Source of the DNA: Promethearchaeota archaeon
GTDB taxonomy: Archaea; Asgardarchaeota; Lokiarchaeia; Sigyniarchaeales; SOKP01
Assembly: GCA_011364975.1 (NCBI GenBank)
Contig: RDOE01000003.1
Span: 14,565-78,564, forward strand
Reading direction: 5' to 3'
DNA length: 64,000 nucleotides
In this document: in pieces, positions 4,556-28,783 of the stretch
Position numbering within the stretch: position 1 is the stretch's first letter
How the letters are laid out: the number at the start of each line of letters is the position of its first letter
The notes under the pieces: model-generated
What the model was told of the DNA's origin: nothing
The model's database searches: none
What the model saw: only the letters and a program-made list of their open reading frames with translations
Made by a program: the position numbers and the translations under genes

Positions 4556-4957
4556 ATGATAGAAAATGAAAAAAAATCTGATGAGTATTGGAAAAAAAAA
4601 TTAACAAAAGATCAATATTATGTATTAAGAGAAAAAGGGACTGAAGCTCCATTTACAGGAAAATATTTAGATAATAAAGAGAAAGGCATATATTATTGTG
4701 CTGGATGTGGTACGCCCTTATTTGATTCAGGCACTAAGTTCAAATCTGGTACAGGATGGCCTAGCTTTTATACTGCAATAGAAAAAGATAATATTAAAGA
4801 AATTAAAGACACGAGCTACGGAATGATAAGAACTGAAGTTTTATGTAGTAAATGTGGAGGGCATCTAGGACATGTGTTCAACGATGGCCCTCGTCCTACG
4901 GGAATGAGATATTGTATAAATTCTATTTCATTAGATATTATATCAGAAAAGGAATAA
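4556..4957 (+). CDS. msrB: Peptide methionine sulfoxide reductase MsrB
   Basis: [15 protein letters not shown], two CxxC, GWPSF, HLGHVF.DGP.PTG.RYCINS; likely ATG 4556, about 25 nt after TTTAAA. Confidence 0.97.
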
Positions 4958-4981
4958 TTTTTTTCTTCCTTTAAGGTTAAT

Positions 4982-5434
4982 TTAAAGTGTTACTATTGAT
5001 GAATTTTTATATTCTTTTAAAACCATATTTGAAATGGTTTTAGTTACGAATTGTTCTTCATTTAATTCTCTAATAAAGTTGTGCACATCACCCGCTTCTT
5101 TGAAACGGCAGATCAAAGCTGCGGATTGTTCCCCTGTTGTATGGAATACTGAACAAACTTCTGGTTTACTTTTAATCTTCTCTAAAATTTCCTGAGTGTG
5201 TTTTCCATCTATTTGAATTCGGATTAAAAAAGTAAGTTTAAATCCTAACTGTTCATTGTTTAATTTAACGGTATATCCCTCAATAATCTTATTATTTTCG
5301 AGCTTTGAGATTCGATTGTGTATTGTTCCAATTGATATTCCTAACATATCTTGAATTTCGCGATAACTTGTTTTTGCATTCTCCTGAAGAATTTTAATTA
5401 TATCCTTATCTATTTCATCAAGAGCTTTCTTCAT
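4982..5434 (-). CDS. Lrp/AsnC family transcriptional regulator
   Basis: LDEIDKDIIKILQENAKTSY..I...LGIS.GT.HNRI..L HTH plus RAM domain; divergent from the thermosome gene. Confidence 0.92.
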   Translation of the reverse strand: MKKALDEIDKDIIKILQENAKTSYREIQDMLGISIGTIHNRISKLENNKIIEGYTVKLNNEQLGFKLTFLIRIQIDGKHTQEILEKIKSKPEVCSVFHTTGEQSAALICRFKEAGDVHNFIRELNEEQFVTKTISNMVLKEYKNSSIVTL

Positions 5435-5623
5435 TTTCTCATATATAAAAAATTAATTATTATTAAATTAAACGAATTTCAGAATATGTTAAAATAATTA
5501 AACAAGCTTTATAATTTTTGGAAAATTAATTTGATTTTTATATAATGATCTCTAAATCACAAAATTCTTAAAATCCATCTCATTTAATAGATTAATTATA
5601 ATAAAAATGATTAAGTGAAAATC

Positions 5624-7210: not shown

Positions 7211-7345
7211 TTTTTTATTAATTTTTTCTATTTTTTTTTACCTCTATTAAATATTTTAAAGATTTTATCTTCTTTAATAAGGTTTAAAATGATTATAAAA
7301 CTCTTTATCCTATTGAGATTGAAAGCTTTTTATTTTCTATAACAA

Positions 7346-9259
7346 TTGAGTGAAATGGATATTTCTAGAGAATTATTAAGATATGTGGATGTGGGTTTAT
7401 TATCCCGCAGTGATTTTGAGAAATTATTAGAATTGAAAAATGAGCATGTATTAAAGATAATTACTCAATTCGTTGATTTATGCTCCCCAAATAAACTTAC
7501 AGTGATTTCTGATGCACAAGATGATATAGAGTATGTAAGAAACATGGCTATCATAAATAGAGAAGAAATTGAGCTGGCCTTGGCTGGTCATACTGTTCAT
7601 TACGACGGTTTCTTTACTATGTCAAATCACGATCAAGCAAGAGATAAAAACAATACACAAGTACTTATTCCAAAAGAAGAACAGGGCAAATATCCTTGGA
7701 TTAATACTATGGAAAGAGAACAAGGATTAAAAGAGATATTTGAGATTATGAAAGGATGTATGAAAGATCATGAATGTATCGTACGTTTCTTTTGTTTAGG
7801 TCCGAAAGGATCCCGATTTTCTATTCTAGCCCTTCAATTAACGGATTCGTTTTATGTAGCACATAGTGAGGATCTTCTATATCGGGAAGGATATGAAGAA
7901 TTTAAAAGATTAAAAGGATCCAACGATTTTTTTTATTTTATCCATTCTTCTGGAGAATTAATAGGGAATCCTCCAGTTACTAAGAACTTAGAAAAAAGAA
8001 GAATCTATATTGATTTACAAGAAGGCCGAGTTCTAACGGTTAATAATCAATATGCTGGTAATTCCCTTGGTCTTAAAAAACTAGCATTGAGATTAGGTAT
8101 TTATAAAGCTAATAATGAAGATTGGCTAACAGAGCATTATTTTATAATGGGATTGCATCCTAGGGGAAAAAGTAGAACAACATATGCTTGCGGAGCATAT
8201 CCTAGTGCATGTGGTAAAACATCTACAGCAATGTTACCAGGACAAACAATAATTGGAGATGATATTGCGTATATTAGAAAATGGGAAGATGGATATTGTC
8301 ATGGAGTAAATATTGAGCATGGGATATTTGGAATTATAAAAGATGTTAATTTGCAAGATGATCCTGAAATCTTTAAAGCACTGACTTCTCCTAGAGAAAC
8401 TATTTTTTCAAATGTATTGATAAAAGATAATGTTCCTTATTGGTTAGGTGATGGAAGAAAACATCCAGAAACCGGTTTTAATTTTTCTGGTGATTGGTAT
8501 CATGGAAAAGAAGACATTGATGGAATCGAAATTCCTCTAGCACATCCAAATGCTCGTTATACAATAAGAATAAGCGAGCTTCCTAATGCAAATCCAAATT
8601 TGAATGCTTCTAATGGAGTTCCTATCCATTTGATATTCTATGGTGGAAGAGATTCTGATACTATGCCCCCTATTATAGAAAGTTTTAATTGGGAACATGG
8701 TGTTTATTTAGGAGCAACCATCGAATCTGAAACAACTTCAGCTACTATTGGAAAAGAAGGTGTTAGAACCATGCAACCAATGGCGAATTTGGATTTTCTA
8801 GTGGTAAGTATGGGAAGGTATTTAAAAAATCATCAAGTTTTTGGCAAAAATTTAAAATATCCGCCTAAAGTCTTTACTACAAATTACTTTTTGAAGAATG
8901 AAAAAGGTAAATATCTAAATGGTATCCTTGATAAATTAGTTTGGGTAATGTGGGCAGAATTAAGAGTTCATAATGACATTACAGCTATTGAAACTCCAAT
9001 TGGATATATCCCATTATATTCAGATTTAAAGTTTCTCTTCAGGGAATATCTTAACAAGGATTATTCTAAAGAAGAATACACGCAACAATTTTCTTTAAGG
9101 ATAACTAAATTATTATCAAAACTAGATAGAGTTGAAAAAATGTATAGCAGGGAAGAAAATATACCTGATTTCTTCTGGAATACACTAATGCAACAGAGAA
9201 AGAAACTTAATTTCTTGAAGAGTGAAAAAGGAGATATAATCTCTCCTTTAGACCTATAA
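7346..9259 (+). CDS. pckG: Phosphoenolpyruvate carboxykinase (GTP)
   Basis: DQAR, YAGNSLGLKK, WLTEH, PSACGKTS, GDDIA, HPNARYT and YGGRD. Confidence 0.95.
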   Translation: MSEMDISRELLRYVDVGLLSRSDFEKLLELKNEHVLKIITQFVDLCSPNKLTVISDAQDDIEYVRNMAIINREEIELALAGHTVHYDGFFTMSNHDQARDKNNTQVLIPKEEQGKYPWINTMEREQGLKEIFEIMKGCMKDHECIVRFFCLGPKGSRFSILALQLTDSFYVAHSEDLLYREGYEEFKRLKGSNDFFYFIHSSGELIGNPPVTKNLEKRRIYIDLQEGRVLTVNNQYAGNSLGLKKLALRLGIYKANNEDWLTEHYFIMGLHPRGKSRTTYACGAYPSACGKTSTAMLPGQTIIGDDIAYIRKWEDGYCHGVNIEHGIFGIIKDVNLQDDPEIFKALTSPRETIFSNVLIKDNVPYWLGDGRKHPETGFNFSGDWYHGKEDIDGIEIPLAHPNARYTIRISELPNANPNLNASNGVPIHLIFYGGRDSDTMPPIIESFNWEHGVYLGATIESETTSATIGKEGVRTMQPMANLDFLVVSMGRYLKNHQVFGKNLKYPPKVFTTNYFLKNEKGKYLNGILDKLVWVMWAELRVHNDITAIETPIGYIPLYSDLKFLFREYLNKDYSKEEYTQQFSLRITKLLSKLDRVEKMYSREENIPDFFWNTLMQQRKKLNFLKSEKGDIISPLDL

Positions 9260-9332
9260 ATTAAAATTTTTTAATTATAATCCAAAGGTTTTTTTAAAAA
9301 TATTAATTAAGATTTTAAAAAAGATTGATGAG

Positions 9333-9980
9333 ATGAAAAATATGGCTTCAACTGGTGGAATAACTTATTCTGTTGCAGAATTTAACACTATTGTTACTAT
9401 GTTAGGTTGTTTATGTGCTACAGTACAACTTTACACAGGGTGGTATAGTGCTTATTATAAGAAAAAAATAGCGCTAATTAAAACGAATGACATCTTATTT
9501 CGAACACATAGGGCATTTGGAGGATTTGCTACAACCCTTTACTTTCTTGGTTTATTTGCAGGATTAACTGGATTTATTGGTGCTTTAATTTTTAATATTC
9601 CTCCTTTTGAAGGTACAGATTTAAGTTTTATGGTTCATGTATGGCCAAGTTTTGCAGTAATGATTGTAATAATTTGGAAAACCTATATTTCCTATTTTCG
9701 GAAACCTTCCATCTATAAGAAAGGAAAGTGGTTAGGGATCGCAACATTTCTTGCTTGGGCATTTACTTGGATTTCATCTGCTTTCTCATATTATTTAAGA
9801 ACTTTACCCTCAAACCCCCAACATCCTTCTCCAACATATTTGCTACCATTTGATCTATTATGGCTTCAAATATTAATCCCATTTTTAATAGGAACGTTGA
9901 TTAGTTACTTTGTACTACAGACTGCACATAAATTAGAATTAAGAAAAGAACAAAGTTCTATGAAAAAAGCTGAAAAATAA
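9333..9980 (+). CDS. Multi-pass membrane protein, possibly cytochrome b561-like
   Basis: About 5 TM helices with His at TM starts (THRAFG, VHVW); heme binding is only inferred. Confidence 0.55.
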   Translation: MKNMASTGGITYSVAEFNTIVTMLGCLCATVQLYTGWYSAYYKKKIALIKTNDILFRTHRAFGGFATTLYFLGLFAGLTGFIGALIFNIPPFEGTDLSFMVHVWPSFAVMIVIIWKTYISYFRKPSIYKKGKWLGIATFLAWAFTWISSAFSYYLRTLPSNPQHPSPTYLLPFDLLWLQILIPFLIGTLISYFVLQTAHKLELRKEQSSMKKAEK

Positions 9981-9981
9981 T

Positions 9982-10662
9982 TTATGCTAAAAATTTAAGG
10001 CCATCTTTTACTTTATAAGTACGATTAAAACGATCTACTTCAATAAACCTTTTAATTTCAAGATTATTTAAGAGATCTCTCATTTCAATAGAACTTTTAT
10101 TTAACTTCTCGGAAAGGCCTTCTATATCATTTTCATAATTACGTAATACTACTAGTAGTGAAGAATAATTATCATATATTTGATTAACCAAATACTTTAA
10201 CGATTCTTGTAGATTCTCACCAGTTCGGGTACTCGTTGGGAAGACCATTACATCATCTTTTAAATAATTCTGGGACCTAATTATCTCTGGATGGCGTGCC
10301 CCGGCTAAATCTTGTTTATTTGCAAGATATACAATTGGAGTCTCAGGTTCAATAGCTTTCCTAATCGCATTTAAAATTATTATTGCATCTTCATCCTTTT
10401 CTGGATGCACCGCATCGAAAATAAAAATAACCCCATCAGTTCCTCTGATTAGCACGTCTCTCATGACGTTAAATCTTAATAATCCTGGAGTACCAAAAAG
10501 AAAGACATCAAACCCATTTAATTTAACACAACCGAGATCCATACCAACGGTATAGTATTTGTTATCTCTTGCTTTGGCTTCTACATTTAACGCTTTATCA
10601 TCAAGATATTTAATAAAACTTGATTTACCAGCTTGCAAAGCCCCGCTCACAACAATTTTCAA
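9982..10662 (-). CDS. Small GTPase (MglA/CvnD-like) with C-terminal winged-helix-like extension
   Basis: G1 GALQAGKSS, TVGMDLG, FGTPG, G4 NKQD, G5 TST; TTG start behind GAGGT. Confidence 0.85.
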   Translation of the reverse strand: MKIVVSGALQAGKSSFIKYLDDKALNVEAKARDNKYYTVGMDLGCVKLNGFDVFLFGTPGLLRFNVMRDVLIRGTDGVIFIFDAVHPEKDEDAIIILNAIRKAIEPETPIVYLANKQDLAGARHPEIIRSQNYLKDDVMVFPTSTRTGENLQESLKYLVNQIYDNYSSLLVVLRNYENDIEGLSEKLNKSSIEMRDLLNNLEIKRFIEVDRFNRTYKVKDGLKFLA

Positions 10663-10957
10663 TGTAAAGACCTCTTTAATTAATTTCGTCGGATTCTAAT
10701 TGTATTATATGGCTTATTATTAAATTATTAACTTAATTTGTTTTATTATTATGATTAATATTTGGATAATATCAATTCCTAAATTTAAAAATAAGCTCTG
10801 ACAATTTTGTTTTCTTTTTACGTACGACAAAAGATTGTTAGCGGTTGTGTGTACAAATCTTAATTTTTAAGTTTTAATGCTTAGAAATAAACATTTCTGA
10901 CAAGAACATAATAAATGAGAAAATTCTTTTGAAATGTATTTTTTTTTAGCTTTAATA

Positions 10958-11620: not shown

Positions 11621-11992
11621 TCCAACAGTAAGAAATAATGCCAATTTTATTCTTTCTTATAAAGAATAAATTTTATTTTATCTCTATTAACAACGAAATT
11701 TTACTAAAATGAAAAAGTTATTTTTTTCAATTTTTTTTACCTTTTAAGATGAAAACTCAGTAATTATATTGTTTAATCTGATCTATATAGTAACTTTTAA
11801 TGACATTTTTATGCTAAAAATTAACATAATCCGTCATTTCAATAAATTTTAAATACTCTTTTAGGATTAGTTTACATTATAAAAGATATTATTACTAGAT
11901 TTAACAATATACTTTTTTTTTAATTGTTAATTCTTAACTCATGTAAATTTTTTAATAAAAATCAAACATAAATTTTTGAATTCAGAAAGAAA

Positions 11993-14900
11993 ATGTCGGA
12001 AAATAAGTTAAGTTCAATAATGATTATAGGAGCAGGTATTTCGGGGATTGAAGCAAGTTTATCGTTGGCAGAACAAGGTTATAAAGTGATACTTGTAGAA
12101 AGAACCTCCTCAGTTGGAGGTAGAATGGCACAACTAGACAAAACATTTCCTACTTTGGATTGTTCTATATGTATTCTCGCACCAAAAATGGTTGAAAGTA
12201 GTAGACATCCTAATATCGAACTTCTTCCTTATTCTGAAGTGGAAGAAATCAATGGTGAAGCAGGCAAATTTACCGTTAAAATAAAGAAGAAGGCTAAATA
12301 CGTGAATTGGGATGTTTGCACTGGTTGTGGAGCCTGTAGTGAAAAATGCCCTATGAAAAAAATACCTTCCGAATTTGAAGAATCTATGGGAAATCGTACA
12401 GCAATATATATTCCATTTCCTCAAGCAGTTCCACGTAAAGCAGTGATAGATGCTAAAAAGTGTCTTTATCTAACGAAGGGAGCCTGTCAATTATGTGAAA
12501 AAGAATGTGAAGCTGGAGCGATAAATTGGGAGGATAAAGATGAATTAAAAACCTATGACGTTGCTTCTATTATCGTTGCTACTGGGTATGATCAACTTAA
12601 TCCTTCTGTAATAGATAGATATCATTTTGAAGAATATCCAAACGTTATAACTGCCATGCAATATGAGAGATTATTGAGTGCATCGGGCCCTACTGGAGGA
12701 GAACTAATACGTCCATCTGATAAAAAACATGCTCATAATATAGCTTTTGTTGCATGTGTTGGATCTCGTAATGAGGATCTATGTGCATATTGTTCTAAAT
12801 TTTGTTGCATGTATATGGCAAAAGAAGGAGTGGTAACGAGAGAACATGCTCCAGAAACAGATGTACATATTTATTTCAATGATATTCGCGTTATTGGAAA
12901 AAATCAAGAAGAATTTATAGAGAGAGCAAAAGAAGAATATGATTTACATTATCATCATGGAATCCCGGGGGATGTAAGAGAAAATCCGGAAAATCATAAT
13001 TTGTACGTTAAATCAGCTAATTTAGATACAGGAGAAGTTGAAACAAGAGAATTTGACCTTGTAGTGTTAGCAAATGCCGTAAAACCAAGAGAAGATGCCG
13101 AACAGTTAGCTAAAATACTGGGAATTGAACGAAATGAATTAGGTTTTTTCAAAACAGATAATTCTACGGAAGACCTAAAATCTACTCGTGAGGGCATCTT
13201 CGTAACAGGATCATGTCAATCTCCTGATGATATTGCAAATTCTGTGGCTAAAGCAGGTGGAGCTGCAGCATTAGCTGCTACATATGCCGTTCCGTTAAGT
13301 GCGGAAGAGACTAAAGTAGAACTCCCACCATTAAGAGAAGTAAAACCTAGTGATGCACCTAAGATAGGTGTGTTCATATGTAGATGCGGGATAAACATCG
13401 GAGGATATATGGACATTCCCAATTTAGTTGATTATGCTAAGTCATTACCTCACGTTGCCTTTGCGATGGAAAACAAATATAGTTGTTCCCAATTAACACA
13501 AGATATTATTAAAGAAAAGATATCCGAGCTAGATTTGAATAGGGTTGTTGTTGCGGCATGTACTCCACGAACCCATGAACCGTTATTCCAGAAAACTATC
13601 AGGGAGGCAGGACTAAACGAATATTTATTCAATTTTGTCAGTATTCGTGAATTAGATTCATGGGTACATATGCATGACAATCCTAGAGCTACAGATAAAG
13701 CGAAAGACCTTATTAGAATGGGTGTTGCTCGAGTAAGTAATCAAAAACCAGAGTATAAAATTAAAGGAAAGGTCGTTCCAGAGGCTCTGGTGGTAGGTGG
13801 AGGAATCTCAGGAATAAGTGCCGCAATTGAAATTGCAAATAAAGGCTTTAAAGTGCATCTTGTTGAACAAACCGATAAATTAGGGGGTCAATTAAATTTA
13901 ATCTACAAAATCAATTTTGACCGTATTGATTCAAAACAATTCTTAGAAGGAACATTAAAGCAATATAATCAAATGAAGAACATCATCACTTACTTAAATT
14001 CGAATGTCTTGGATGTTAAAGGATCCATTGGAGATTTTAAAGTTAAAGTCAAAAATAAAATTGAAAACAAAGAATTCGATTTAAATGTGGGTACAATTAT
14101 CACTGCGACAGGTGCTTATGAATATAAGCCCAAAGGGTGGTACCATTATGGAGAGAATGAGAATGTAATGACTCAATTAGAACTTTCAGAAAAGCTAAGA
14201 AAAAATGAGCTAAAAGATGGTGAGACGTTTGTTTTCATACATTGTGTTGGGTCTAGACAACCAGAAGGTGGTAACGGAGTAACATATTGTTCCTTAATCT
14301 GCTGTTCTGAATCGATCAGACATGCTTTATATGTTAAAGAGAATTACCCTAATTCAAATCTTTACGTATTATATCGAGATATTCGCGTAGGAACAGACGA
14401 AGAACCTTATTACTGGAAAGCTCGGGAAAATATTAACTATATACGATTTAATGATTATCCCACTGTTGATATCAAAAATGGAAAACTAATGGTAAATGTA
14501 AAAGATATATTAACACAAGTCGATCTTAATATTGAAGCAGATAAAGTAATATTATCCACTCCATTAATTCCAAATGACACCCAAAAGTTAGGAGAGATGA
14601 TCAAATGTGCAAGAGACCAAAACGGGTTTTTCTTAGAAGCACATATTAAATTGCGACCTGTTGATTTTGCAACAGACGGAATATATTTATCAGGTACCTG
14701 CCATGGCCCAAAAGGAATCGCAGATTCTATTTCTCAAGGACGAGCCGCTGCAGCGCATGCGTTAATTCCCCTAATTTCAGGAGAAGTTGAAAATGAACCA
14801 CTAGTATCAGTTGTAAACTCTGCATTATGCATTGCATGTCAGAAGTGTGAAGAAGTGTGTAATTTTGGTGCTATTGGAGTCAACTTTGATAACGAAATAT

Positions 14901-15490
14901 TAGTATCTGAATCTAATCCATTACTTTGTAAAGGTTGTGGAGATTGTGCTGCCGCTTGTCCTGCAGGAGCAATTACTATGAGTCATTTTGCTGATGAGCA
15001 AATTACTCCCATGATCCGGGAAGCTGTAAAAGGTGATTTTGTTGATGAAAGACCTCGTATTGTAGCGTTCTTATGCAATTGGTGTAGTTATGCCGGAGCC
15101 GATACTTGTGGAGTAAGTAGGTTTCAATATCCTACCAATATAAGACCCATCAGAGTCATGTGTACAGGTAGAATTCCAAAAAGTTTCATTTTACAGGCAT
15201 TTCTGGAAGGTGCAGACGGTGTTTTTGTTGGGGGTTGTCATATTGGCGATTGTCATTATTTAGAAGGGAATTATGATATGTTAAGACGATATAATGAAGT
15301 TCATGAAATCTTAGAAAAGGTAGGAATTAATCGAGAGAGATATCGATTAGAATGGGTTTCAGCAAGTGAGGGAAAGCGATTTTCTCAAGTTGTTACTGAG
15401 TTTGTAGATAAAGTAAAAGAGTTAGGTCCTATGCCAAAAACAGGAGATAGAATTGAACCTAAAAAAGAAAAAGTTAAGGAGAGTGCATAA
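11993..15490 (+). CDS. hdrA: Heterodisulfide reductase subunit A-like flavoprotein (two FAD modules) fused to MvhD
   Basis: Two GxGxxG FAD motifs, DKTFPTLDCSIC, CVGSR...CS..CC twice, internal CRCGINI..AACTPRTHE domain, ferredoxin modules; C-terminal MvhD CNWCSY..RVMCTGR..GCHIGDCHY. Confidence 0.95.
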   Translation: MSENKLSSIMIIGAGISGIEASLSLAEQGYKVILVERTSSVGGRMAQLDKTFPTLDCSICILAPKMVESSRHPNIELLPYSEVEEINGEAGKFTVKIKKKAKYVNWDVCTGCGACSEKCPMKKIPSEFEESMGNRTAIYIPFPQAVPRKAVIDAKKCLYLTKGACQLCEKECEAGAINWEDKDELKTYDVASIIVATGYDQLNPSVIDRYHFEEYPNVITAMQYERLLSASGPTGGELIRPSDKKHAHNIAFVACVGSRNEDLCAYCSKFCCMYMAKEGVVTREHAPETDVHIYFNDIRVIGKNQEEFIERAKEEYDLHYHHGIPGDVRENPENHNLYVKSANLDTGEVETREFDLVVLANAVKPREDAEQLAKILGIERNELGFFKTDNSTEDLKSTREGIFVTGSCQSPDDIANSVAKAGGAAALAATYAVPLSAEETKVELPPLREVKPSDAPKIGVFICRCGINIGGYMDIPNLVDYAKSLPHVAFAMENKYSCSQLTQDIIKEKISELDLNRVVVAACTPRTHEPLFQKTIREAGLNEYLFNFVSIRELDSWVHMHDNPRATDKAKDLIRMGVARVSNQKPEYKIKGKVVPEALVVGGGISGISAAIEIANKGFKVHLVEQTDKLGGQLNLIYKINFDRIDSKQFLEGTLKQYNQMKNIITYLNSNVLDVKGSIGDFKVKVKNKIENKEFDLNVGTIITATGAYEYKPKGWYHYGENENVMTQLELSEKLRKNELKDGETFVFIHCVGSRQPEGGNGVTYCSLICCSESIRHALYVKENYPNSNLYVLYRDIRVGTDEEPYYWKARENINYIRFNDYPTVDIKNGKLMVNVKDILTQVDLNIEADKVILSTPLIPNDTQKLGEMIKCARDQNGFFLEAHIKLRPVDFATDGIYLSGTCHGPKGIADSISQGRAAAAHALIPLISGEVENEPLVSVVNSALCIACQKCEEVCNFGAIGVNFDNEILVSESNPLLCKGCGDCAAACPAGAITMSHFADEQITPMIREAVKGDFVDERPRIVAFLCNWCSYAGADTCGVSRFQYPTNIRPIRVMCTGRIPKSFILQAFLEGADGVFVGGCHIGDCHYLEGNYDMLRRYNEVHEILEKVGINRERYRLEWVSASEGKRFSQVVTEFVDKVKELGPMPKTGDRIEPKKEKVKESA

Positions 15491-15493
15491 AAA

Positions 15494-16027
15494 GTGACTG
15501 AGATGTTAAAGAAAAATGCGGATAATTTAGATCATTCATTTAGATATGAAATAAGTGCAAAAGTTGGGGCTAAATCACTTCTTAAATGCATTCAGTGCGG
15601 TGTTTGTAGTAGTGGTTGTACTGTGACTGAATATGTAGACTTACAACCCCATAGAGTCGTTGCTTCGTGTCTTTTAGGCTTAAAAGAGGAAGTGTTATCC
15701 AGTAATGCAATTTGGACTTGTTCATTGTGCCATAGATGTACTGAGAGATGCCCTAAAAACGTTGATTATTCCTTTATTTTAGCGTTATTAAGAAATTTGG
15801 CAGTAAAGGAAGGAAAAATTCCGAAAGAATACTCAAGTACTGTGGTCACTATCTATAATAATGGATATGTTGTTCCATATACGGGGGGATTGAAAGATAA
15901 TATTGATAGACGACGAGGAAAAATGGGATTACCAGAATTAGTCCCCCCGGACCTCAAAGAGATTCAATTTATAATTGAAGAAACAGGTCTTGGGGCTCTT
16001 GCAAAAGAAAAGGAGGATGATAAATAA
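15494..16027 (+). CDS. hdrC: Heterodisulfide reductase subunit C
   Basis: CIQCGVCSSGC and WTCSLCHRCTERCP; lies between hdrA and hdrB. Confidence 0.93.
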   Translation: MTEMLKKNADNLDHSFRYEISAKVGAKSLLKCIQCGVCSSGCTVTEYVDLQPHRVVASCLLGLKEEVLSSNAIWTCSLCHRCTERCPKNVDYSFILALLRNLAVKEGKIPKEYSSTVVTIYNNGYVVPYTGGLKDNIDRRRGKMGLPELVPPDLKEIQFIIEETGLGALAKEKEDDK

Positions 16028-16914
16028 TGAAAAAAGAATTGGGATTTTTTATTGGATGCACAATACCGCTTAAATTACCTCATTTAGAAAAGGCTTTTAG
16101 GGATGTAGCAAATATATTAGGCTTGAAACTTAGGGAAATGGAAGGTGTTAGCTGCTGCCCAGAACCAGTTTCTCTTCAATCATTAAATATGGATACTTGG
16201 GTAACCTTAGGGGCTAGAAATTTAGCTATCGCTGAAAAGATGGGTGTAGACATTTTAACCATATGTTCTGGGTGTTATGAAACGTTAAAGACAGTAAGTG
16301 TATTACTAAAGGAGGATAAAGAATATCTGAAGAAGATAAATACAATTTTGAATAAAATCAATTACAAATATACTGGTAAAACTAAAGTATATCACTTTGT
16401 AGAATTATTTAGTGAACCTGAATGGTTAGAAAAGATAAAAAGTTTAGTAGTAAAGCCACTAGATGATTTGAATTTAGCAGTTCATTACGGTTGCCATTTG
16501 GTTAGACCAAGTAAAATCATGCAATTCGATCACCCTGAAAAACCAGAGAAAATTGATGTCATTCTTCAAGCGCTTGGTGCTAAAACGCTAGATTTTGCCA
16601 ATAAACTTGAATGTTGTGGATACTGTGCTAGATTACAAGAGGAGATTGGTGAAAAATTGGTTGAAGATAAAATGACGGAATTATGTGAGCTTGAGGAAGG
16701 AGTAGATGGGTTGATTGCAGTCTGTCCTGCTTGTGTTACACAATATGATAGAAAAGAGAAAATTATAGCAAGAAAATCCGGTAAAGAGTTAGATATCCCT
16801 GTACTCTATTTAGCAGAAATGATGGCAGTAGCACTAGGTGTAGAATTAGAAGATCTAAGTTTAAAAAATAGAAGTGTAAAACCCGATAAGTTAATTGAGA
16901 AATTAACATCCTAA
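16027..16914 (+). CDS. hdrB: Heterodisulfide reductase subunit B
   Basis: CCG domains: GC...SCCP..CSGC and HYGCH..RP..CCG..CPAC..QYD. Confidence 0.95.
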   Translation: MKKELGFFIGCTIPLKLPHLEKAFRDVANILGLKLREMEGVSCCPEPVSLQSLNMDTWVTLGARNLAIAEKMGVDILTICSGCYETLKTVSVLLKEDKEYLKKINTILNKINYKYTGKTKVYHFVELFSEPEWLEKIKSLVVKPLDDLNLAVHYGCHLVRPSKIMQFDHPEKPEKIDVILQALGAKTLDFANKLECCGYCARLQEEIGEKLVEDKMTELCELEEGVDGLIAVCPACVTQYDRKEKIIARKSGKELDIPVLYLAEMMAVALGVELEDLSLKNRSVKPDKLIEKLTS

Positions 16915-17006
16915 GAAGTGTATTTTTTTTCAAAACACAAATTAAGATTAAATTAATGAATCAAAACAAAAAAATGAAAGAAATTTGAAAAAAGGAGTTA
17001 TGTAAT

Positions 17007-17705
17007 ATGATTATTACTCAACAAAAAGATATAAACGAAATTTACGAGATGGTAAAAAACTACAAAAAAATTTTAATTGCTGGCTGTGATGGATGTTGTC
17101 AACCACCTCGCTCTTTAAATGAAGCTAAAGTACTTGGGCAGCTTTTGGAATTAAAGGCGAGAACTGAAGGGAAGGAGTTAAAATGGAAAGCTATAACAGT
17201 TCTAAGGCAATGTGATGATAGAATAGCGGCTACTACTGTAAGTCCCCATATTGAGAATTACGATGCTATTGTATCATTAGCTTGTGGTCTTGGAGTAGTG
17301 ATGTTAAATAAGGTATTGCCAAAAATTTTGACTTTTCCTGCTCAAAATAGCATGTTTGGAGGAGCCCAAAATAGTGGTGAAAATAGCTTTATTGAATACT
17401 GCGAGGAATGTGGTGATTGTATAATTGGAGAAACCGGTGGAGTTTGTCCGAGAGCAGGGTGTGCTAAACATCTTAGCAACGGACCCTGTGGAGGGATGGT
17501 AGATGGAAAGTGTGAAGTTGGTGGATATACTATTCCTTGTGCCTGGGTACAAATGTGGACTAGATTAAAAGAATTTAATAGGCTAGACTTATTTAAGAAA
17601 TATCGAGGCCCTAGAGATTATCGTACTTCAACCAGCCCAAGTTACTTAACAATCTATAAAGAATATACTAATGAAAAAGAAGAGAAGGTGGAGGCGAAAG
17701 AATAA
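17007..17705 (+). CDS. metV: Methylenetetrahydrofolate reductase Fe-S/FMN subunit MetV
   Basis: GCDGC, RQCD, ACGLG, CEECGDC....TGGVCP...CAK.L.NGPCGG...GKCEV and CAW. Confidence 0.92.
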   Translation: MIITQQKDINEIYEMVKNYKKILIAGCDGCCQPPRSLNEAKVLGQLLELKARTEGKELKWKAITVLRQCDDRIAATTVSPHIENYDAIVSLACGLGVVMLNKVLPKILTFPAQNSMFGGAQNSGENSFIEYCEECGDCIIGETGGVCPRAGCAKHLSNGPCGGMVDGKCEVGGYTIPCAWVQMWTRLKEFNRLDLFKKYRGPRDYRTSTSPSYLTIYKEYTNEKEEKVEAKE

Positions 17706-17706
17706 A

Positions 17707-18660
17707 ATGACTAAAAGACCGGCATATAGTAAATTATGCAAAGCTATCGAAGATGGTCATTTCGTATTCACTGGAGAACTTGAGCCTAAAAAAATCTTGG
17801 ATCTTAGTGAGATTTTTCATTCTGCTGAAGAAATGAAGAAAACAGGCAAAATTGTCGCAGCTAACGTGACCGACGGACCACAAGGAGATGCATATATGTC
17901 ATCATTAGTCCCGAGTTATCTTATTCAAGATAAGGTAGGTATTGAAGCGGTTTGGCAAGTTACCGTTCGAGATCGTAATCGTGTAGCCTTATTTGGAGAT
18001 GTAGTCGCAGGTTCGGTTTTAGGTTTAAAGAACATCTTAACGCTTACCGGAGATCATACAGCTTTGGGTGATCATAAAAAAGGACGTCCAGTTTACGATA
18101 TTGATAGCACTCAATTCTGTGAAATGCTTTCCAAGATGATTGATGAAGGAACTGATTATGAAGGTAATCCTCTTGAAGGGGGAAAAATTGAAATGAACTT
18201 TGGATGCGTAGCCAACCCAAATAGCAACCCAAGGGAACCAGAAATTTTTAAAGTAGGCCGTAAAGTCGAACAAGGAGTAGATTTCATTCAAACCCAAACT
18301 GCTTTTGACATAGATCAAGCAAAAGAATTTCTTAAGGAATTAGAGCAATTCAATGTTCCCGTATTACTAGGAGTGTTTCCTCTCAAATCTTATGGTATAG
18401 CCTGGTATTTTGATGCTTACATACCTGGAGTTTCAGTTCCTAAGGATTTATTAGGGGCCTTAAAGAAAGCTGAAAAAGATAACAAGGGAGATAAACAGGC
18501 AAAATATGATGCCCTCGATAAGATCAATATTGAATTTTTCGAACCATTTATCAAAGAAATCAAGAAAAGTACGAAAGCAGCGGGGATTCATTGCATGGCA
18601 GTTGAATACGAAAGACTTTTTGATCCTTTACTTAGAGAATATCCGAAATACGTCAAGTAA
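17707..18660 (+). CDS. metF: Methylenetetrahydrofolate reductase catalytic subunit MetF
   Basis: TGELEP, NVTD, RDRN, LTGDH and FIQTQ; likely ATG 17707. Confidence 0.92.
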   Translation: MTKRPAYSKLCKAIEDGHFVFTGELEPKKILDLSEIFHSAEEMKKTGKIVAANVTDGPQGDAYMSSLVPSYLIQDKVGIEAVWQVTVRDRNRVALFGDVVAGSVLGLKNILTLTGDHTALGDHKKGRPVYDIDSTQFCEMLSKMIDEGTDYEGNPLEGGKIEMNFGCVANPNSNPREPEIFKVGRKVEQGVDFIQTQTAFDIDQAKEFLKELEQFNVPVLLGVFPLKSYGIAWYFDAYIPGVSVPKDLLGALKKAEKDNKGDKQAKYDALDKINIEFFEPFIKEIKKSTKAAGIHCMAVEYERLFDPLLREYPKYVK

Positions 18661-18758
18661 ATTTCTTTAAAACAAAAAAATCTGAGAAAAAATATATTTT
18701 TAATTTTTATTTAACATTTTTTTAAAAAAAAAGAATAAAAGAAGGAGTATGTAAAAAT

Positions 18759-19232
18759 ATGAAAAATTTAGATGATAAAGATAAACGAATTTTAGAAATG
18801 CTTATAGAAGATTCAAGAAGAGCCTACAAAGAAATAGCTGATCAATTATCTAATGAAGGTATGGCATTATCAGAGTCAACCGTTAGAAAGCGTGTAATCA
18901 AATTACAAGAGGATGGTGTAATCGAAAAGTTTACGATTAAAGTTTGTAGGGAGGATGAAAGATGTATTATAGCATTTCTTACTTTAATCCCAAAGTCCGA
19001 ATCGGAGATTAAAGAATTATTACGAGAAACCCAGATTCTTCCACAATGTGATGAAGTTTATTTTCTTGCTGGACAATGTGGGATATTATTAAAAGTTCAA
19101 GTCCCAGAAATTACAGAATTAGATGCAGTTATTGAGAATTTCCGTGGACGAAGTGACGTAAAAAGCGTTGAAAGAGTATGTGTAGTTCTTAAATCATTAA
19201 AAGAATCTAAAGATAGTCGTGTACCTCTATAA
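18759..19232 (+). CDS. Lrp/AsnC family regulator, last co-oriented gene of the hdr-met cluster
   Basis: LDDKDKRIL..L.EDSRR.Y.EIA...SESTVRKRV.KL...GVI..FT. Confidence 0.9.
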   Translation: MKNLDDKDKRILEMLIEDSRRAYKEIADQLSNEGMALSESTVRKRVIKLQEDGVIEKFTIKVCREDERCIIAFLTLIPKSESEIKELLRETQILPQCDEVYFLAGQCGILLKVQVPEITELDAVIENFRGRSDVKSVERVCVVLKSLKESKDSRVPL

Positions 19233-20394: not shown

Positions 20395-21582
20395 TTATTG
20401 GGGATAAATACCTTCTTCTTCACGGGTTGAAACCATTGCTAGGAAATTCTCCAATTTAACTGATGGATTGATGCTATGCCCAGAACTAAATATATATCCA
20501 CCCCCAGGTCCTAAAGCTCTTATTAGCTTCTTAGAATATTCTTTGATAAAAATGGGTTCTTTATCTGCTAAATCTTGAGGAGAAACGTTTCCGATAAAAG
20601 TTACATCATTTCCATATCGTTCATGCAATTTAAAAATATCATATTTTGGGTTAGCTGTTGTGGGTTCAATAGGATGAATTGCATCAAACCCTACTTTTAC
20701 TAAATCACCAAAAATAGGTTCTAAATCTCCGCAGCTGTGAAATAGGACATTAATACCTTTAGAATGACAATAATTGCAAAGTTTTTCGTACCAAGGAAAC
20801 AAGATCTCCTTATAGTTATTAGGATTTGTTAGTAATCCTGATTTAAAGCCAAGGTCATCAAATAACATAATTGCTGTTGATTCGCCCCATTCAATCAATC
20901 TTTTAGCTAATTCTAGTGCGAAATTTCCATATTTATCGATGACCTTTTTTGCGAATTTTTTTCCAATTAATAATTTGCTAAACTGAGTAAACCCAAATGC
21001 TTGCCATGATGATTCAAAAATGCCCCATATAGTTGGTATAACCGCGATATTTCCTTCAAATTCCTTTTCTACCTTTTTCATCATGTCATAAATACGTTTT
21101 CTTCTTGGGTTGTCGGGATCGAGCAAAGAAAATTTCTCAAAATCTTCGAAACTTTTAAAATAACCATCTTTGTAATATGCTATGTCCATATTATCTGATG
21201 GATTTTTTTTCAAATCGAAAATCCTACCATATTCATCAATAAATCCCTCCTTCATACAGAAAGTTGGAAAGAAGATATAGCCAGATAAAGGAATTTGAGC
21301 CAAATCAATTCCTATCTTAGAAAAAAGACCAAGATATTGTTTTATGGTGTTTTTTAGATATGATCGGGATTCAGTAGCAGCTAATATGGTGTTAGTGAAC
21401 TCATCAATTATTCCCCTACAAAGGTTATACGTATCTGCAAAACTCTTTGCCATACCTTGTAAATAGTAACCTTCAGAATAATGATCACAGATTTTTAAAT
21501 TATCTATGGATAATTCGAACCAGGGAATCTTATCCGGTTCTTCATGATCTAGTTCTCTTAAAACTCTATCCCTAGCTTTCAT
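20395..21582 (-). CDS. Uroporphyrinogen decarboxylase/MtaA-CmuA methyltransferase-like family protein
   Basis: RDRV...L.HEEPD.IP, DDLG, FHSCG, GNV and GGGYIFSSGHSI. Confidence 0.8.
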   Translation of the reverse strand: MKARDRVLRELDHEEPDKIPWFELSIDNLKICDHYSEGYYLQGMAKSFADTYNLCRGIIDEFTNTILAATESRSYLKNTIKQYLGLFSKIGIDLAQIPLSGYIFFPTFCMKEGFIDEYGRIFDLKKNPSDNMDIAYYKDGYFKSFEDFEKFSLLDPDNPRRKRIYDMMKKVEKEFEGNIAVIPTIWGIFESSWQAFGFTQFSKLLIGKKFAKKVIDKYGNFALELAKRLIEWGESTAIMLFDDLGFKSGLLTNPNNYKEILFPWYEKLCNYCHSKGINVLFHSCGDLEPIFGDLVKVGFDAIHPIEPTTANPKYDIFKLHERYGNDVTFIGNVSPQDLADKEPIFIKEYSKKLIRALGPGGGYIFSSGHSINPSVKLENFLAMVSTREEEGIYPQ

Positions 21583-27170: not shown

Positions 27171-27836
27171 ATGACCATTATAACAACAAAAAAACCTTTT
27201 GAGGAGGTTTTAGGAGCCATCAAGAATGCAAAGAGATTAACGATCGTATCTTGTGGATCCTGTGCAGCGATGTGTCAAACCGGAGGAACAGAAGGAGCGA
27301 AAGAGATGGCTGATAAGCTTGAGAAAGAGGGTTTTCAAATCACTACAGTTATTGTTCCAGAGGAAGTATGCGATAATCGTGTTATGAAGCAAGATTTCCG
27401 TAAAATTGAAGAAGATCTAGAAAATACCGACGCTATCTTAACTTTAAGTTGTGGTCTTGGCGTAGCTAGCATAACAGAAGTGCTAAGTAAAAAGTTTCCG
27501 AATATTCCAGTATTTATTGGCACCAACACGGAGTTTATGGGCATGACGGAGCGCATCGGAAGATTTTTTATGCGTTGTCGAGGGTGTGGTGATTGTCTTC
27601 TCAATGAAACTGGAGGAATTTGTCCTATTACAACTTGTGCGAAATCTCTCATGAATGGGCCCTGCGGTGGTATGGTAGATGGAAAATGTGAGGTTGGAAA
27701 GTACGAAAAAGATTGTGGCTGGATTTTAATTTATAATCGATTGAAAGAATTAGGCCGATTAGATTTTTTCGAAAAATTAAGAGACCCAGTTGATTGGAGC
27801 GAATCTGGGCATCAAAGAGAAGTAGTATGGAGGTAG
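27171..27836 (+). CDS. metV: MetV, second copy
   Basis: CGSCA..C.TGG, SCGLG and CRGCGDC....TGGICP...CAKSL.NGPCGG..DGKCEV. Confidence 0.92.
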   Translation: MTIITTKKPFEEVLGAIKNAKRLTIVSCGSCAAMCQTGGTEGAKEMADKLEKEGFQITTVIVPEEVCDNRVMKQDFRKIEEDLENTDAILTLSCGLGVASITEVLSKKFPNIPVFIGTNTEFMGMTERIGRFFMRCRGCGDCLLNETGGICPITTCAKSLMNGPCGGMVDGKCEVGKYEKDCGWILIYNRLKELGRLDFFEKLRDPVDWSESGHQREVVWR

Positions 27837-27844
27837 ATAAAAAA

Positions 27845-28783
27845 ATGGGAGAAAAAAAGTTTTTTTCTAAGTTGGGAGAAGCTTTATCTAAAGGAGACTT
27901 TATTCTCACTGGTGAATTAGAACCAGAAAAAACTACTGATCTTAGCCATACAGTCGAAGAAGCTAGAGAAATGGCTCCTTATGTTGTTGCCGCTAATGTT
28001 ACTGACAGCCCCTTAGGAATTGTGACTATAAATAGTATGGCTGCATCTCATATTATTCAGAGTGAAACTGGGCTAGAATGCATCTGGCAATTGACTGTTA
28101 GAGATGTAAATAAGTTAGGAATTGTGGGCATGCTTATGGGGGGTCATGCGTTAGGATTGAGAAACATTCTTTCTCTTACTGGGGATCATACAGCGTTAGG
28201 TGATATGCCTGAATCCAAACCAGTATTTGATCTCGATTCAGCCACCTTAGTTAAGCTCGTACGAGAGGTGGTTGATAAAGGAACAATTAACGGTCATGAG
28301 ATAGAGCATCCTCCCACCATTCATGTGGGGGCTGCTGCGAATCCCAATGCTAATCCAATGGATGCAGAGGTATTAAAAATAAAAAGAAAGGCACAAGCAG
28401 GAGCTGAATTTTTACAAACTCAAGTGGTATATGACCTAGATAAAACTATCGAATTTTTATCCGCAATAAAAAAGTATAATGTTCCTATTTTACTTGGAAT
28501 CTTCCCAATGAAAAGCTATGCAATTGCCAAAGGTTTTGATGAGTTTGTCCCCGGTGTAAGTGTCCCAAAAGATATATTAGCTCGATGGAAGGGTATTAAA
28601 AACGATTACTCTACTGACAAGAAAATGATGAATGAAGTTTATGACCAAGCAAATTATGAATTTTTCAAACCATTTATTACGGAGCTAAGAAAGAAAAAAC
28701 TTCTCGATGGAATCCATTGTATGGCGGTTCATTACCCTAGAATCTTTCCCAAGTTGACGGAAGTAATCAAAAATACTAATTAA
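27845..28783 (+). CDS. metF: MetF, second copy
   Basis: TGELEP, NVTDSP, RD.N, LTGDH and FLQTQ; likely ATG 27845 behind GGAGGT. Confidence 0.92.
   Translation: MGEKKFFSKLGEALSKGDFILTGELEPEKTTDLSHTVEEAREMAPYVVAANVTDSPLGIVTINSMAASHIIQSETGLECIWQLTVRDVNKLGIVGMLMGGHALGLRNILSLTGDHTALGDMPESKPVFDLDSATLVKLVREVVDKGTINGHEIEHPPTIHVGAAANPNANPMDAEVLKIKRKAQAGAEFLQTQVVYDLDKTIEFLSAIKKYNVPILLGIFPMKSYAIAKGFDEFVPGVSVPKDILARWKGIKNDYSTDKKMMNEVYDQANYEFFKPFITELRKKKLLDGIHCMAVHYPRIFPKLTEVIKNTN

What the first reader, a model, noticed from the sequence alone, without database searches (positions are those of the whole stretch)
11993..19232. Archaeal hdrA::mvhD-hdrC-hdrB-metV-metF operon: candidate electron-bifurcating methylene-H4folate/H4MPT reductase
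Seen: tightly spaced co-oriented genes (3 nt, 1-nt overlap, 92 nt, 1 nt) followed by an Lrp regulator. Known: a MetFV-HdrABC-MvhD complex is described in the bacterial acetogen Moorella thermoacetica and proposed to bifurcate electrons; archaea normally use F420-dependent Mer. Inference: this archaeon couples a bacterial-type MetFV to an Hdr module, giving an energy-coupling step in the C1 branch, possibly run oxidatively.
Basis: partly seen in the sequence, partly recalled or inferred. Interest (0 to 1): 0.72.

Follow-up and report, generated by a model that had tools for sequence, protein, structure and literature searches.

The report
Hdr-linked methylene-pterin reductase operon in Lokiarchaeia
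A Lokiarchaeial genome that lacks the usual archaeal enzyme for one step of its carbon-fixing pathway carries a strongly conserved operon joining a bacterial-style replacement enzyme (MetVF) to a heterodisulfide-reductase electron-splitting module, a known kind of gene cluster seen here in a new lineage and alongside a second, unlinked copy of the enzyme.

Summary

- **Conservation.** An hdr gene lies directly upstream of metV in 80 of 80 related Promethearchaeota loci.
- **Genome context.** The genome has the H4MPT pathway markers Mtd, Mch, beta-RFAP synthase and CdhC. It has no Mer and no McrA. Mer was found in none of the 154 genomes of the window's order, but it occurs in many other Asgard families.
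  - A second, Hdr-free metVF pair lies 9 kb downstream.
  - MetF1 (Hdr-linked) and MetF2 (free) are sister clades, which suggests a duplication inside Lokiarchaeia.
  - Sister families with Mtd and no Mer carry only the free pair, so the Hdr-linked copy need not be the Mer substitute.
  - A conserved T-run follows hdrB, so separate transcription of metVF is not excluded.

The six modules match the Moorella MetFV-HdrABC-MvhD complex, and similar archaeal clusters have been noted in Ca. Syntrophoarchaeum. Complex formation, the C1 carrier, the electron partners and bifurcation are all untested here, and bifurcation is unproven even in Moorella.

Verdict: a real, conserved new member of a known kind, of moderate interest.

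The parts
11993..15490 (+). hdrA::mvhD, 1165 aa: two HdrA modules fused to a C-terminal MvhD domain. Module 1 (aa ~1-440) is a thioredoxin-reductase/FAD domain with an inserted ferredoxin domain. It keeps the DCSIC motif (C57, C60 = Cys197 of M. wolfeii HdrA) and has no N-terminal domain and no C-terminal ferredoxin. Module 2 (aa ~454-1010) has the N-terminal Fe-S domain, an FAD domain and the C-terminal ferredoxin. It lacks the Cys197 equivalent and the inserted ferredoxin. MvhD is aa ~1020-1148.
   Evidence: alignment to 5ODC_A: aa 9-381 = HdrA 146-513; aa 454-620 = HdrA 2-168; aa 874-1008 = HdrA 512-646; aa 1020-1147 = MvhD 5odc_D. One search gives the Cys positions.
15494..16027 (+). hdrC, 177 aa, with two 4-Cys ferredoxin motifs (C32/35/38/42 and C76/79/82/86).
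   Evidence: TIGR03290 scores 103 bits, below its cut-off of 160.
16027..16914 (+). hdrB, 295 aa, with both CCG motifs intact: C11-x31-C43C44-x35-C80xxC83 and C156-x39-C196C197-x35-C233xxC236.
   Evidence: (E 5.5e-71 to solved HdrB 8rvu_b). TIGR03288 scores 275 bits, below its cut-off of 345.
16915..17006 (+). hdrB-metV spacer of 92 nt. A T-run (16923-16930) is flanked by GTGT/ACAC, followed by an A-rich stretch and GGAG before the metV ATG. It could be an archaeal terminator or attenuator, with or without an internal promoter.
   Evidence: The window and 65 loci were aligned. Spacers are 46-117 nt, and a TTTTTT column block is conserved in at least 80% of rows.
17007..17705 (+). metV1, 232 aa, 13 Cys. 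The N-terminal half is a Rossmann-like alpha/beta domain and the C-terminal half is the Cys-rich PF12225 domain.
   Evidence: No solved homologue was found.
17707..18660 (+). metF1, 317 aa, of the MTHFR family. It keeps the residues that HMMER aligns to EFFPP, RGD and TQ of the Thermus MTHFR 1v93; that these are the catalytic residues is recalled, not tested.
   Evidence: TIGR00676 scores 43.5 bits, below its cut-off of 293.7.
18759..19232 (+). lrp/asnC-family regulator, 157 aa.
   Evidence: It lies directly downstream of metF in 75 of 80 loci.
27171..27836 (+). metV2, 221 aa: a paralogue 41% identical to MetV1, with no hdr gene beside it.
27845..28783 (+). metF2: a paralogue 45% identical to MetF1. 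The longest ORF starts at TTG 27794. The ATG at 27845 aligns with the MetF1 start.

Best explanation
The operon encodes a MetVF-type methylene-pterin reductase that works as one unit with an HdrABC-MvhD flavin-based electron-bifurcation module. It acts in the methyl branch of the H4MPT Wood-Ljungdahl pathway of a Lokiarchaeon that has no Mer.

Proposed path, all inferred by analogy with the solved Mvh-Hdr and Fdh-Hdr complexes:
1. The MetF flavin interconverts methylene- and methyl-H4MPT.
2. The MetV Fe-S clusters connect MetF to the [2Fe-2S] MvhD domain fused to HdrA. MetVF thus takes the place that the hydrogenase, formate dehydrogenase or FrhB occupies in other Hdr complexes.
3. The tandem HdrA folds as its own heterodimer with a single set of branches. 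One branch runs through the inserted ferredoxin domain of module 1 and the N-terminal cluster of module 2, which Cys60 completes, to ferredoxin. The other runs through HdrC to the two non-cubane clusters of HdrB and an unknown thiol/disulfide couple.

In the oxidative direction, methyl-H4MPT would reduce ferredoxin plus the disulfide. In the reductive (acetogenic) direction, reduced ferredoxin plus the thiol would confurcate onto methylene-H4MPT.

Shown here: the gene content, the motifs, the conserved linkage, and the genome's lack of Mer and Mcr.
Inferred: the complex itself, the docking site, the C1 carrier, the redox partners and the direction.
For: **Modules and motifs**
- All six modules are present.
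- The two HdrA modules have complementary losses and so form a pseudo-heterodimer. Chadwick et al. describe this pattern for fused HdrA, including the Moorella one (passages read, PMC9012536).
- Both HdrB CCG motifs are intact.

**Conserved linkage**
- An hdr gene is adjacent to metV in 80 of 80 loci. Two architectures both keep HdrA::MvhD next to or near metV.
- The linkage also occurs outside family f1, in G129, G144 and G128.
- HdrB1 orthologues were found in 81 of 135 family genomes. By my reading, 79 of those also carry MetF1, and the two exceptions lie at contig ends.
- Genera g6 (0 of 4) and g8 (0 of 1) lack both genes.

**Genome context**
- Mtd, Mch, beta-RFAP synthase and CdhC are present. 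Mer, Fhs and McrA were not found in a genome estimated 99.25% complete.
- Mer was found in 0 of 153 other genomes of the order.
- In other Asgard families mer lies beside metVF, in G117, G002 and G128. This ties MetVF to H4MPT-level C1 metabolism.
- Two other tandem-HdrA loci of this genome pair FrhB with a CCG protein, HdrAA and MvhD, so input modules look exchangeable.
Against: - No RNA run holds the stretch, so co-transcription is untested.
- A T-run conserved about 10 nt after the hdrB stop, within the ~90-nt spacer, could terminate hdrACB transcripts.
- Families f2 and f4 (G130, G279, G280, G281) and the 100%-complete f1 genome G161 have Mtd and no Mer. They carry only a free MetVF2-type pair, so a free MetVF may be the Mer substitute and the Hdr-linked copy may do something else.
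- By my reading f1 genomes with Mtd show no MetF1. Most of them are incomplete.
- The genome also has FolD, so an H4F pool is possible.
- No McrA was found, so the HdrB substrate is unknown.
- The Moorella complex did not reduce ferredoxin and its bifurcation was never demonstrated (passages read in PMC8578096).
- The redox potentials used in my argument (H4MPT couple about -390 mV, H4F couple about -200 mV) are recalled and come from no call.
Confidence: 0.5

Rival explanations
1. Moorella-like H4F enzyme. MetVF1 reduces methylene-H4F, a high-potential acceptor. It receives the exergonic branch from HdrA via HdrC and HdrB, while an unknown donor enters at MvhD. The free MetVF2 would then be the Mer substitute on H4MPT.
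For: - hdrB is the gene directly beside metV in 66 of 80 loci.
- FolD is present.
- A free MetVF alone accompanies Mtd without Mer in f2, f4 and G161.
- The cluster has the same six modules as the Moorella H4F enzyme.
Against: - No Fhs was found.
- The cultured relatives' family f3 keeps only the free MetVF and lacks Mtd (0 of 14). Zhang et al. 2025 (passage read, PMC12222021) assign the MetF of the two cultivated strains and three related MAGs to the H4F branch. This would make MetVF2 the H4F candidate.
- 14 of 80 loci have hdrA::mvhD, not hdrB, next to metV.
Confidence: 0.22
2. A coupled but non-bifurcating complex. The Hdr-MvhD module acts only as an electron wire or diaphorase that links MetVF1 to a single donor or acceptor, and no energy coupling occurs.
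For: According to the passages read in PMC8578096, the Moorella complex oxidises NADH at HdrA, does not reduce ferredoxin, and has never been shown to bifurcate.
Against: The ferredoxin-side elements (inserted ferredoxin domain, N-terminal cluster ligands and Cys60) and both HdrB non-cubane cluster motifs are all kept. Their retention is hard to explain for a simple wire.
Confidence: 0.18
3. Two independent neighbouring operons, hdrACB and metVF-lrp, stay together by descent, with no functional interaction.
For: - The conserved T-run and the ~90-nt spacer between hdrB and metV.
- The genome holds about 11 HdrA-like and 10 MvhD-like loci, so an Hdr cluster beside any given gene is not rare in a single genome.
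Against: - Adjacency holds in 80 of 80 loci. In those loci HdrA identity falls as low as 44-49% in the 14 loci of the second arrangement and MetF1 identity to 69%, and a rearrangement has occurred.
- The linkage recurs in other families, in Ca. Syntrophoarchaeum (PMC9012536) and in bacteria.
- HdrB1 occurs without MetF1 only at contig ends.
Confidence: 0.1

Closest known systems
MetFV-HdrABC-MvhD methylene-H4F reductase of Moorella thermoacetica (Mock et al. 2014). I did not read that paper; I know it through passages in PMC6085437, PMC9012536 and PMC8578096.
   Same: - The same six modules lie in one cluster.
- MetV is paired with MetF.
- HdrA is a fusion of two HdrA units with complementary loss of Cys197 and of the N-terminal domain.
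   Different: - The host is an archaeon with H4MPT-pathway genes and no Mer.
- MvhD is fused to HdrA rather than being a separate gene.
- The gene order is hdrA::mvhD-hdrC-hdrB-metV-metF, against metF-metV-mvhD-hdrA-hdrB-hdrC in Moorella. The Moorella order is my inference from the consecutive accession numbers in the table of PMC6085437.
- A second, free MetVF paralogue is present.
- The C1 carrier and the electron donor are unknown here.
Archaeal MetF that replaces Mer in ANME-1 and Ca. Syntrophoarchaeum, and the MetFV-HdrA-MvhD clusters of Ca. Syntrophoarchaeum (Chadwick et al. 2022, PMC9012536, passages read).
   Same: - MetF sits next to MetV in archaea without Mer.
- That paper's MetF tree groups ANME-1 MetF with Bathyarchaeota, Verstraetearchaeota and Asgard sequences.
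- It proposes that MetF may feed an HdrA bifurcation or confurcation.
   Different: - Here hdrC and hdrB are also in the cluster.
- The order of the two HdrA modules is the reverse of that described for ANME HdrA3/HdrA4. Here the module with Cys197 comes first.
- No Mcr was found in this genome.
- I did not compare sequences with ANME-1 or Syntrophoarchaeum.
MvhAGD-HdrABC and FdhAB-MvhD-HdrABC of methanogens (solved structures 5ODC, 7BKB, 8RVU).
   Same: - HdrA, HdrB and MvhD are clear homologues (E 3.8e-198, 5.5e-71 and 8.7e-53).
- The CCG motifs and the Fe-S ligands are conserved.
   Different: - There is no hydrogenase or formate dehydrogenase beside them; MetVF stands in that place.
- HdrA is a tandem pseudo-heterodimer.
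- There is no McrA in the genome, so CoM-S-S-CoB is unlikely to be the substrate.

Membership tests
MetFV-HdrABC-MvhD type methylene-tetrahydrofolate reductase (Moorella type) | MetF, MetV, HdrA, HdrB, HdrC and MvhD are encoded in one cluster. | tested here: met
   The arrangement is conserved in 80 of 80 loci.
MetFV-HdrABC-MvhD type methylene-tetrahydrofolate reductase (Moorella type) | HdrA is a double HdrA with complementary loss of Cys197 and of the N-terminal domain. | tested here: met
   The feature itself is taken from PMC9012536. The Moorella sequence was not compared.
MetFV-HdrABC-MvhD type methylene-tetrahydrofolate reductase (Moorella type) | All genes lie on one transcript. | tested here: inconclusive
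   No RNA run holds the stretch. A conserved T-run lies in the hdrB-metV spacer.
MetFV-HdrABC-MvhD type methylene-tetrahydrofolate reductase (Moorella type) | The six subunits form a physical complex. | not testable with these tools
No solved MetV homologue exists.
MetFV-HdrABC-MvhD type methylene-tetrahydrofolate reductase (Moorella type) | H4F is the substrate and HdrA has NADH diaphorase activity. | not testable with these tools
   This needs enzyme assays. The genome context points to H4MPT instead.
CoB-CoM heterodisulfide reductase HdrABC (methanogen type) | The subunits reach the NCBIfam equivalog cut-offs. | tested here: not met
   HdrB scores 275.3 against 345.15 and HdrC scores 103.4 against 160. 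HdrA scores 726.9 against 1400 for the HdrA equivalog. Only the HdrA2 'exception' model passes, at 1161 against 1100, and it is helped by the doubled module.
CoB-CoM heterodisulfide reductase HdrABC (methanogen type) | HdrB carries two CCG motifs for the non-cubane [4Fe-4S] clusters. | tested here: met
CoB-CoM heterodisulfide reductase HdrABC (methanogen type) | The organism makes CoM-S-S-CoB, i.e. Mcr is present. | tested here: not met
   PF02249 gave no match in a genome estimated 99.25% complete.
NAD(P)H-dependent MetF (TIGR00676 / TIGR00677) | The protein reaches the equivalog cut-off. | tested here: not met
   It scores 43.5 against 293.7 and 45.3 against 310.05. It is a member of Pfam MTHFR only (88.8 bits against 24).
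F420-dependent Mer (TIGR03555) | A Mer gene is present in the genome. | tested here: not met
   The best match scores 66.4 bits against a cut-off of 348.7. Mer was found in 0 of 153 other genomes of the order.

The most novel reading that the evidence does not exclude
In Lokiarchaeia, MetVF has replaced the hydrogenase as the electron-input module of an Hdr bifurcase. The methyl-/methylene-H4MPT couple would then be tied directly to ferredoxin and to an unknown thiol/disulfide couple. That would be a previously undescribed energy-coupling site in the archaeal Wood-Ljungdahl pathway. The free MetVF2 and the Hdr-linked MetVF1 would be isoenzymes for different directions or different redox partners. 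This could explain how Mer-less Lokiarchaeia run the pathway both as an electron sink and oxidatively.
Probability: 0.3. Interest if true: 0.75.

Novelty: new member of a known kind. Interest (0 to 1): 0.5.

Why it matters
Lokiarchaeia are abundant in marine sediments and are close relatives of the archaeal ancestor of eukaryotes. Arguments about whether they are hydrogen-dependent, acetogenic or syntrophic rest on how their Wood-Ljungdahl pathway is wired. The step from methylene- to methyl-H4MPT is the one without a canonical enzyme in this whole order.

Several observations give a concrete candidate and a testable design (MetVF1 with Hdr versus MetVF2 alone):
- a strongly conserved Hdr-linked MetVF
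- a free paralogue of it in the same genomes
- mer-metVF neighbourhoods in other Asgard families

The work also offers an archaeal counterpart for the still unresolved Moorella complex.

Tried and rejected
- **RNA evidence.** The look-up of sequencing runs listed no RNA holder, so I did not use read laying.
- **MetV1 structure.**
  - AlphaFold2 gave mean pLDDT 73.4, and the Cys-rich C-terminal half was poorly modelled.
  - Foldseek against the PDB returned only generic Rossmann-like and periplasmic-binding-protein hits. The best had E 3.2e-4 and TM 0.31, which is not informative.
- **PDB by sequence.** There is no MetV relative and only distant MTHFRs for MetF1.
- **URO-D methyltransferase-like gene** at 20395-21582. 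I considered it as a methyl-feeding partner and rejected it, because it is conserved in 0 of 80 loci.
- **Fixed differences between MetF1 and MetF2.** There are 30, clustered at aa 57-63. I could not interpret them in terms of substrate.
- **Literature.**
  - All ten full-text searches found no paper in the held library that describes this Lokiarchaeial hdr-metVF cluster.
  - Spang et al. 2019 and Orsi et al. 2020 are not held. They may mention MetF in Asgard archaea. That is my recollection and is unverified.
- **Recent bacterial import of the whole cluster.** I could not test this, because no bacterial MetF sequences were available to me for the tree.


Full report
**Observation**

| Gene | Coordinates | Junction with previous gene |
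|---|---|---|
| hdrA::mvhD | 11993-15490 | |
| hdrC | 15494-16027 | 3-nt gap |
| hdrB | 16027-16914 | 1-nt overlap |
| metV | 17007-17705 | 92-nt gap |
| metF | 17707-18660 | 1-nt gap, GGTGGAGG upstream |
| lrp/asnC | 18759-19232 | 98-nt gap |

Pfam and NCBIfam confirm the domains.

The window's GC content is about 25-36% in 2-kb windows. It encodes several Arf/Ras/Rag-type small GTPases. Its closest relatives are MAGs labelled Promethearchaeota, that is, Asgard archaea. The genome (G000) has 3.74 Mb in 200 contigs, with completeness 99.25% and contamination 6.09%.

**Anatomy of the Hdr genes**

I aligned HdrA to the solved M. wolfeii HdrA and MvhD and listed its cysteines. HdrA is a tandem.

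| Feature | Module 1 (aa ~1-440) | Module 2 (aa ~454-1010) |
|---|---|---|
| FAD domain | yes | yes |
| Inserted ferredoxin domain | yes | no |
| Cys197 equivalent | yes (C60, in DCSIC) | no |
| N-terminal Fe-S domain | no | yes |
| C-terminal ferredoxin domain | no | yes |

- An MvhD domain (aa ~1020-1148) follows module 2 in the same protein.
- These losses are complementary. Chadwick et al. describe the same pattern for fused HdrA, including the Moorella one, and read it as a built-in heterodimer (passages read, PMC9012536).
- In their ANME HdrA3/HdrA4 the module with the N-terminal domain comes first. Here it comes second.
- HdrB keeps both CX31-39CCX35-36CXXC motifs and HdrC keeps both 4-Cys motifs.
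- HdrB and HdrC fall below the NCBIfam equivalog cut-offs for the methanogen enzyme.

**Conservation of the linkage**

The search for related loci with MetF1 found 109 relatives and kept 80 loci. All are Asgard or unclassified archaeal MAGs, with MetF1 identity of 69-95%. I mapped the window's proteins onto them.

- 66 loci have hdrA::mvhD-hdrC-hdrB-metV-metF.
- 14 loci have hdrA::mvhD, or in L082 and L083 only its MvhD-like end, directly before metV. Most of these also carry a further HdrA set and a distant HdrB upstream.
- So 80 of 80 loci have an hdr gene directly upstream of metV.
- lrp follows metF in 75 of 80. Two of the five exceptions end just after metF.
- Outside family f1 the linkage is present in G129 (f7), G144 (f3) and G128 (f7, hdrA::mvhD-metV-metF).
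- A search of the 135 family genomes with HdrB found orthologues in 81.
- Comparing by hand, 79 of those 81 also carry a MetF1-type gene. The two exceptions, G245 and G206, have hdrB at a contig end.
- Genera g6 (4 genomes) and g8 (1 genome) lack both genes.

**The spacer between hdrB and metV**

I aligned the spacer from the window and from 65 loci.

- Spacer length is 46-117 nt.
- A T-run of at least 5-6 T lies about 10 nt after the hdrB stop and is conserved in at least 80% of rows.
- In the window the run is 16923-16930, flanked by GTGT and ACAC.
- An A-rich stretch and a GGAG follow it.
- Oligo-T tracts are archaeal termination signals; this is established knowledge and was not tested here.
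- The data therefore fit two tightly coupled sub-operons, hdrACB and metVF. Either read-through is attenuated or metVF has its own promoter.
- No RNA run holding this stretch was listed, so this stays open.

**Genome context**

| Marker | Result in G000 |
|---|---|
| Mtd | present, 354 bits |
| Mch | present, 365 bits |
| beta-RFAP synthase | present, 311 bits |
| CdhC | present |
| FolD | present |
| Mer | not found (best 66 bits, cut-off 348.7) |
| Fhs | not found |
| McrA | not found |

- Among 400 Asgard genomes, Mer passes its cut-off in 77.
- Mer was found in 0 of 134 f1, 0 of 1 f2, 0 of 14 f3 and 0 of 4 f4 genomes, which together make up the window's whole order.
- Mer is present in families f5-f7, f9-f11, f19-f21, part of f31, f32 and f33.
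- Mtd in the order: f1 123 of 134, f2 1 of 1, f3 0 of 14, f4 4 of 4.

**A second MetVF pair**

- The window holds another metV-metF pair at 27171-27836 and 27845-28783. No hdr gene lies beside it.
- It is 41% (MetV) and 45% (MetF) identical to the first pair.
- These two pairs are the only MTHFR matches in the genome.
- 13 of the 44 loci that extend at least 8.5 kb downstream show the same second pair.

**MetF tree**

I built an IQ-TREE tree (LG+C20) of 50 MetF rows. To save time I dropped 58 of the 80 near-identical MetF1 rows.

- The Hdr-linked MetF1 clade has support 100/99.
- The Lokiarchaeial free MetF2 clade has support 100/99.
- The two are sisters with support 96/87.
- MetF from other Asgard families lies outside them.
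- With the root on the distant MetF-like rows, this reads as a duplication inside Lokiarchaeia. No bacterial or other archaeal sequences were included, so import from outside is not excluded.

**Which paralogue replaces Mer?**

- By my reading, a MetF1-type gene occurs in 112 of 135 f1 genomes. Outside f1 it occurs only in a few genomes: G144, G129, a partial copy in G282, and G074, which may be a mis-binned contig.
- Families f2 and f4 (G130, G279, G280, G281) and the 100%-complete f1 genome G161 have Mtd and no Mer. Each carries a single, free MetVF2-like pair.
- A free MetVF therefore seems enough to accompany a Mer-less H4MPT branch.
- Family f3 lacks Mtd and keeps only the free pair.
  - Zhang et al. 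2025 assign the metF of the two cultivated strains and three related MAGs to a partial H4F branch (passage read, PMC12222021).
- So the Hdr-linked copy is an additional, specialised system. It is not shown to be the Mer replacement.
- In Asgard families that do have Mer, mer lies next to metVF. This ties MetVF to H4MPT-level C1 metabolism:
  - G117: mer is 322 nt upstream of metV.
  - G002: mer lies between two metVF pairs.
  - G128: mer is about 4 kb from hdrA::mvhD-metVF.

**Mechanism**

- The genome holds about 11 HdrA-like and 10 MvhD-like loci.
- Two other tandem-HdrA loci are FrhB-CCG protein-HdrAA-MvhD. The tandem HdrA/MvhD core therefore seems to accept different input modules.
- By analogy with the solved Mvh-Hdr and Fdh-Hdr complexes, I favour MetV docking on MvhD, with MetVF as the mid-potential input or output module. 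The ferredoxin and HdrB/thiol-disulfide branches would be as in methanogens.
- This fits the H4MPT couple. I recall its potential as about -390 mV, close to H2, formate and F420H2. That value comes from no call.
- The main rival is the Moorella-like scheme, in which methylene-H4F (about -200 mV, recalled) is the high-potential acceptor fed through HdrC and HdrB.
- Neither scheme is tested here. The passages I read in PMC8578096 state that the Moorella complex oxidises NADH at HdrA, does not reduce ferredoxin, and has not been shown to bifurcate.
- The HdrB substrate is unknown here because no McrA was found. A figure legend in Imachi et al. 2020 lists an unnamed thiol/disulfide pair, XSH/X-S-S-X, in the metabolic scheme for MK-D1 (PMC7015854).

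**Known or new?**

- The kind of system is known: the Moorella complex, and MetFV-HdrA-MvhD clusters in Ca. Syntrophoarchaeum.
- It is also known that MetF stands in for Mer in ANME-1, and that Asgard sequences fall in that MetF clade (PMC9012536).
- Poudel et al. 2018 found only one archaeal 'Met' homologue at the time (PMC6085437).
- My ten full-text searches found no description of the Lokiarchaeial cluster in the held library.
  - Spang et al. 2019 and Orsi et al. 2020 are not held and may bear on this.
  - I could not see the supplements of those papers.
  - the family-wide conservation of the linkage
  - the fused hdrA::mvhD with reversed module order
  - the free and Hdr-linked paralogue pair and its origin
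  - the order-wide absence of Mer
  - the mer-metVF neighbourhoods elsewhere in the phylum

Noticed in passing
window 27171-28783 (+): A second metV-metF pair lies here with no hdr gene beside it. It is followed by a PAS histidine kinase (28905-30056) and a pyridine-nucleotide-disulfide oxidoreductase with a dimerisation domain (30565-32091). The oxidoreductase recurs downstream in 4 of 80 loci.
   Followed up: partly
L102 (G000:C145) 3271-10730 and L103 (G000:C177) 76-6080: Two further tandem-HdrA loci of the same genome have the order FrhB-like, CCG protein, HdrAA (1028-1029 aa), then a separate MvhD gene. This suggests F420-linked Hdr complexes built on the same tandem core.
   Followed up: partly
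L099 10584-13463 (G117); L097 8641-15717 (G002); L091 134-10163 (G128): In Asgard families that keep Mer, the mer gene lies next to metV-metF. In G002 it lies between two metVF pairs. In G128 it is about 4 kb from an hdrA::mvhD-metV-metF cluster.
   Followed up: partly
L070-L072, L074, L077, L079, L084, L086, L087 (about 130-8260 in each locus): A variant architecture: a distant hdrB (36-39% identical; seen in six of these nine loci, not in L084, L086 or L087), then an HdrA split or fused in two pieces, then a full hdrA::mvhD directly before metV. No hdrC-hdrB pair lies between.
   Followed up: no
window 11903-11928: A palindrome, AACAAT...T9...ATTGTT, lies about 70-90 nt upstream of the hdrA start. 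A related AA.AA..ATTTT..AA block is conserved at the 70% level among 56 aligned upstream regions. It may be a promoter or an Lrp-binding site.
   Followed up: partly
window 20395-21582 (-): A URO-D-family gene (MtaA/MtbA-like methyltransferase family by Pfam) lies 1.1 kb downstream of lrp. It is absent from this neighbourhood in 80 of 80 related loci, so it is probably a local insertion.
   Followed up: yes
G188 and G189 (family f1, genus g12, single-contig genomes): Both have Mtd. With MetF1 as query, G188 shows no MetF and G189 only a weak match (E 1.2e-19). Neither has Mer. The methylene-reduction step is unaccounted for in these genomes. Their completeness is 81% and 90%.
   Followed up: no
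window 1668-2600, 9982-10662 (-), 37797-38405: Several Arf/Ras/Gtr1-RagA-type small GTPase genes, typical of Asgard archaea.
   Followed up: no
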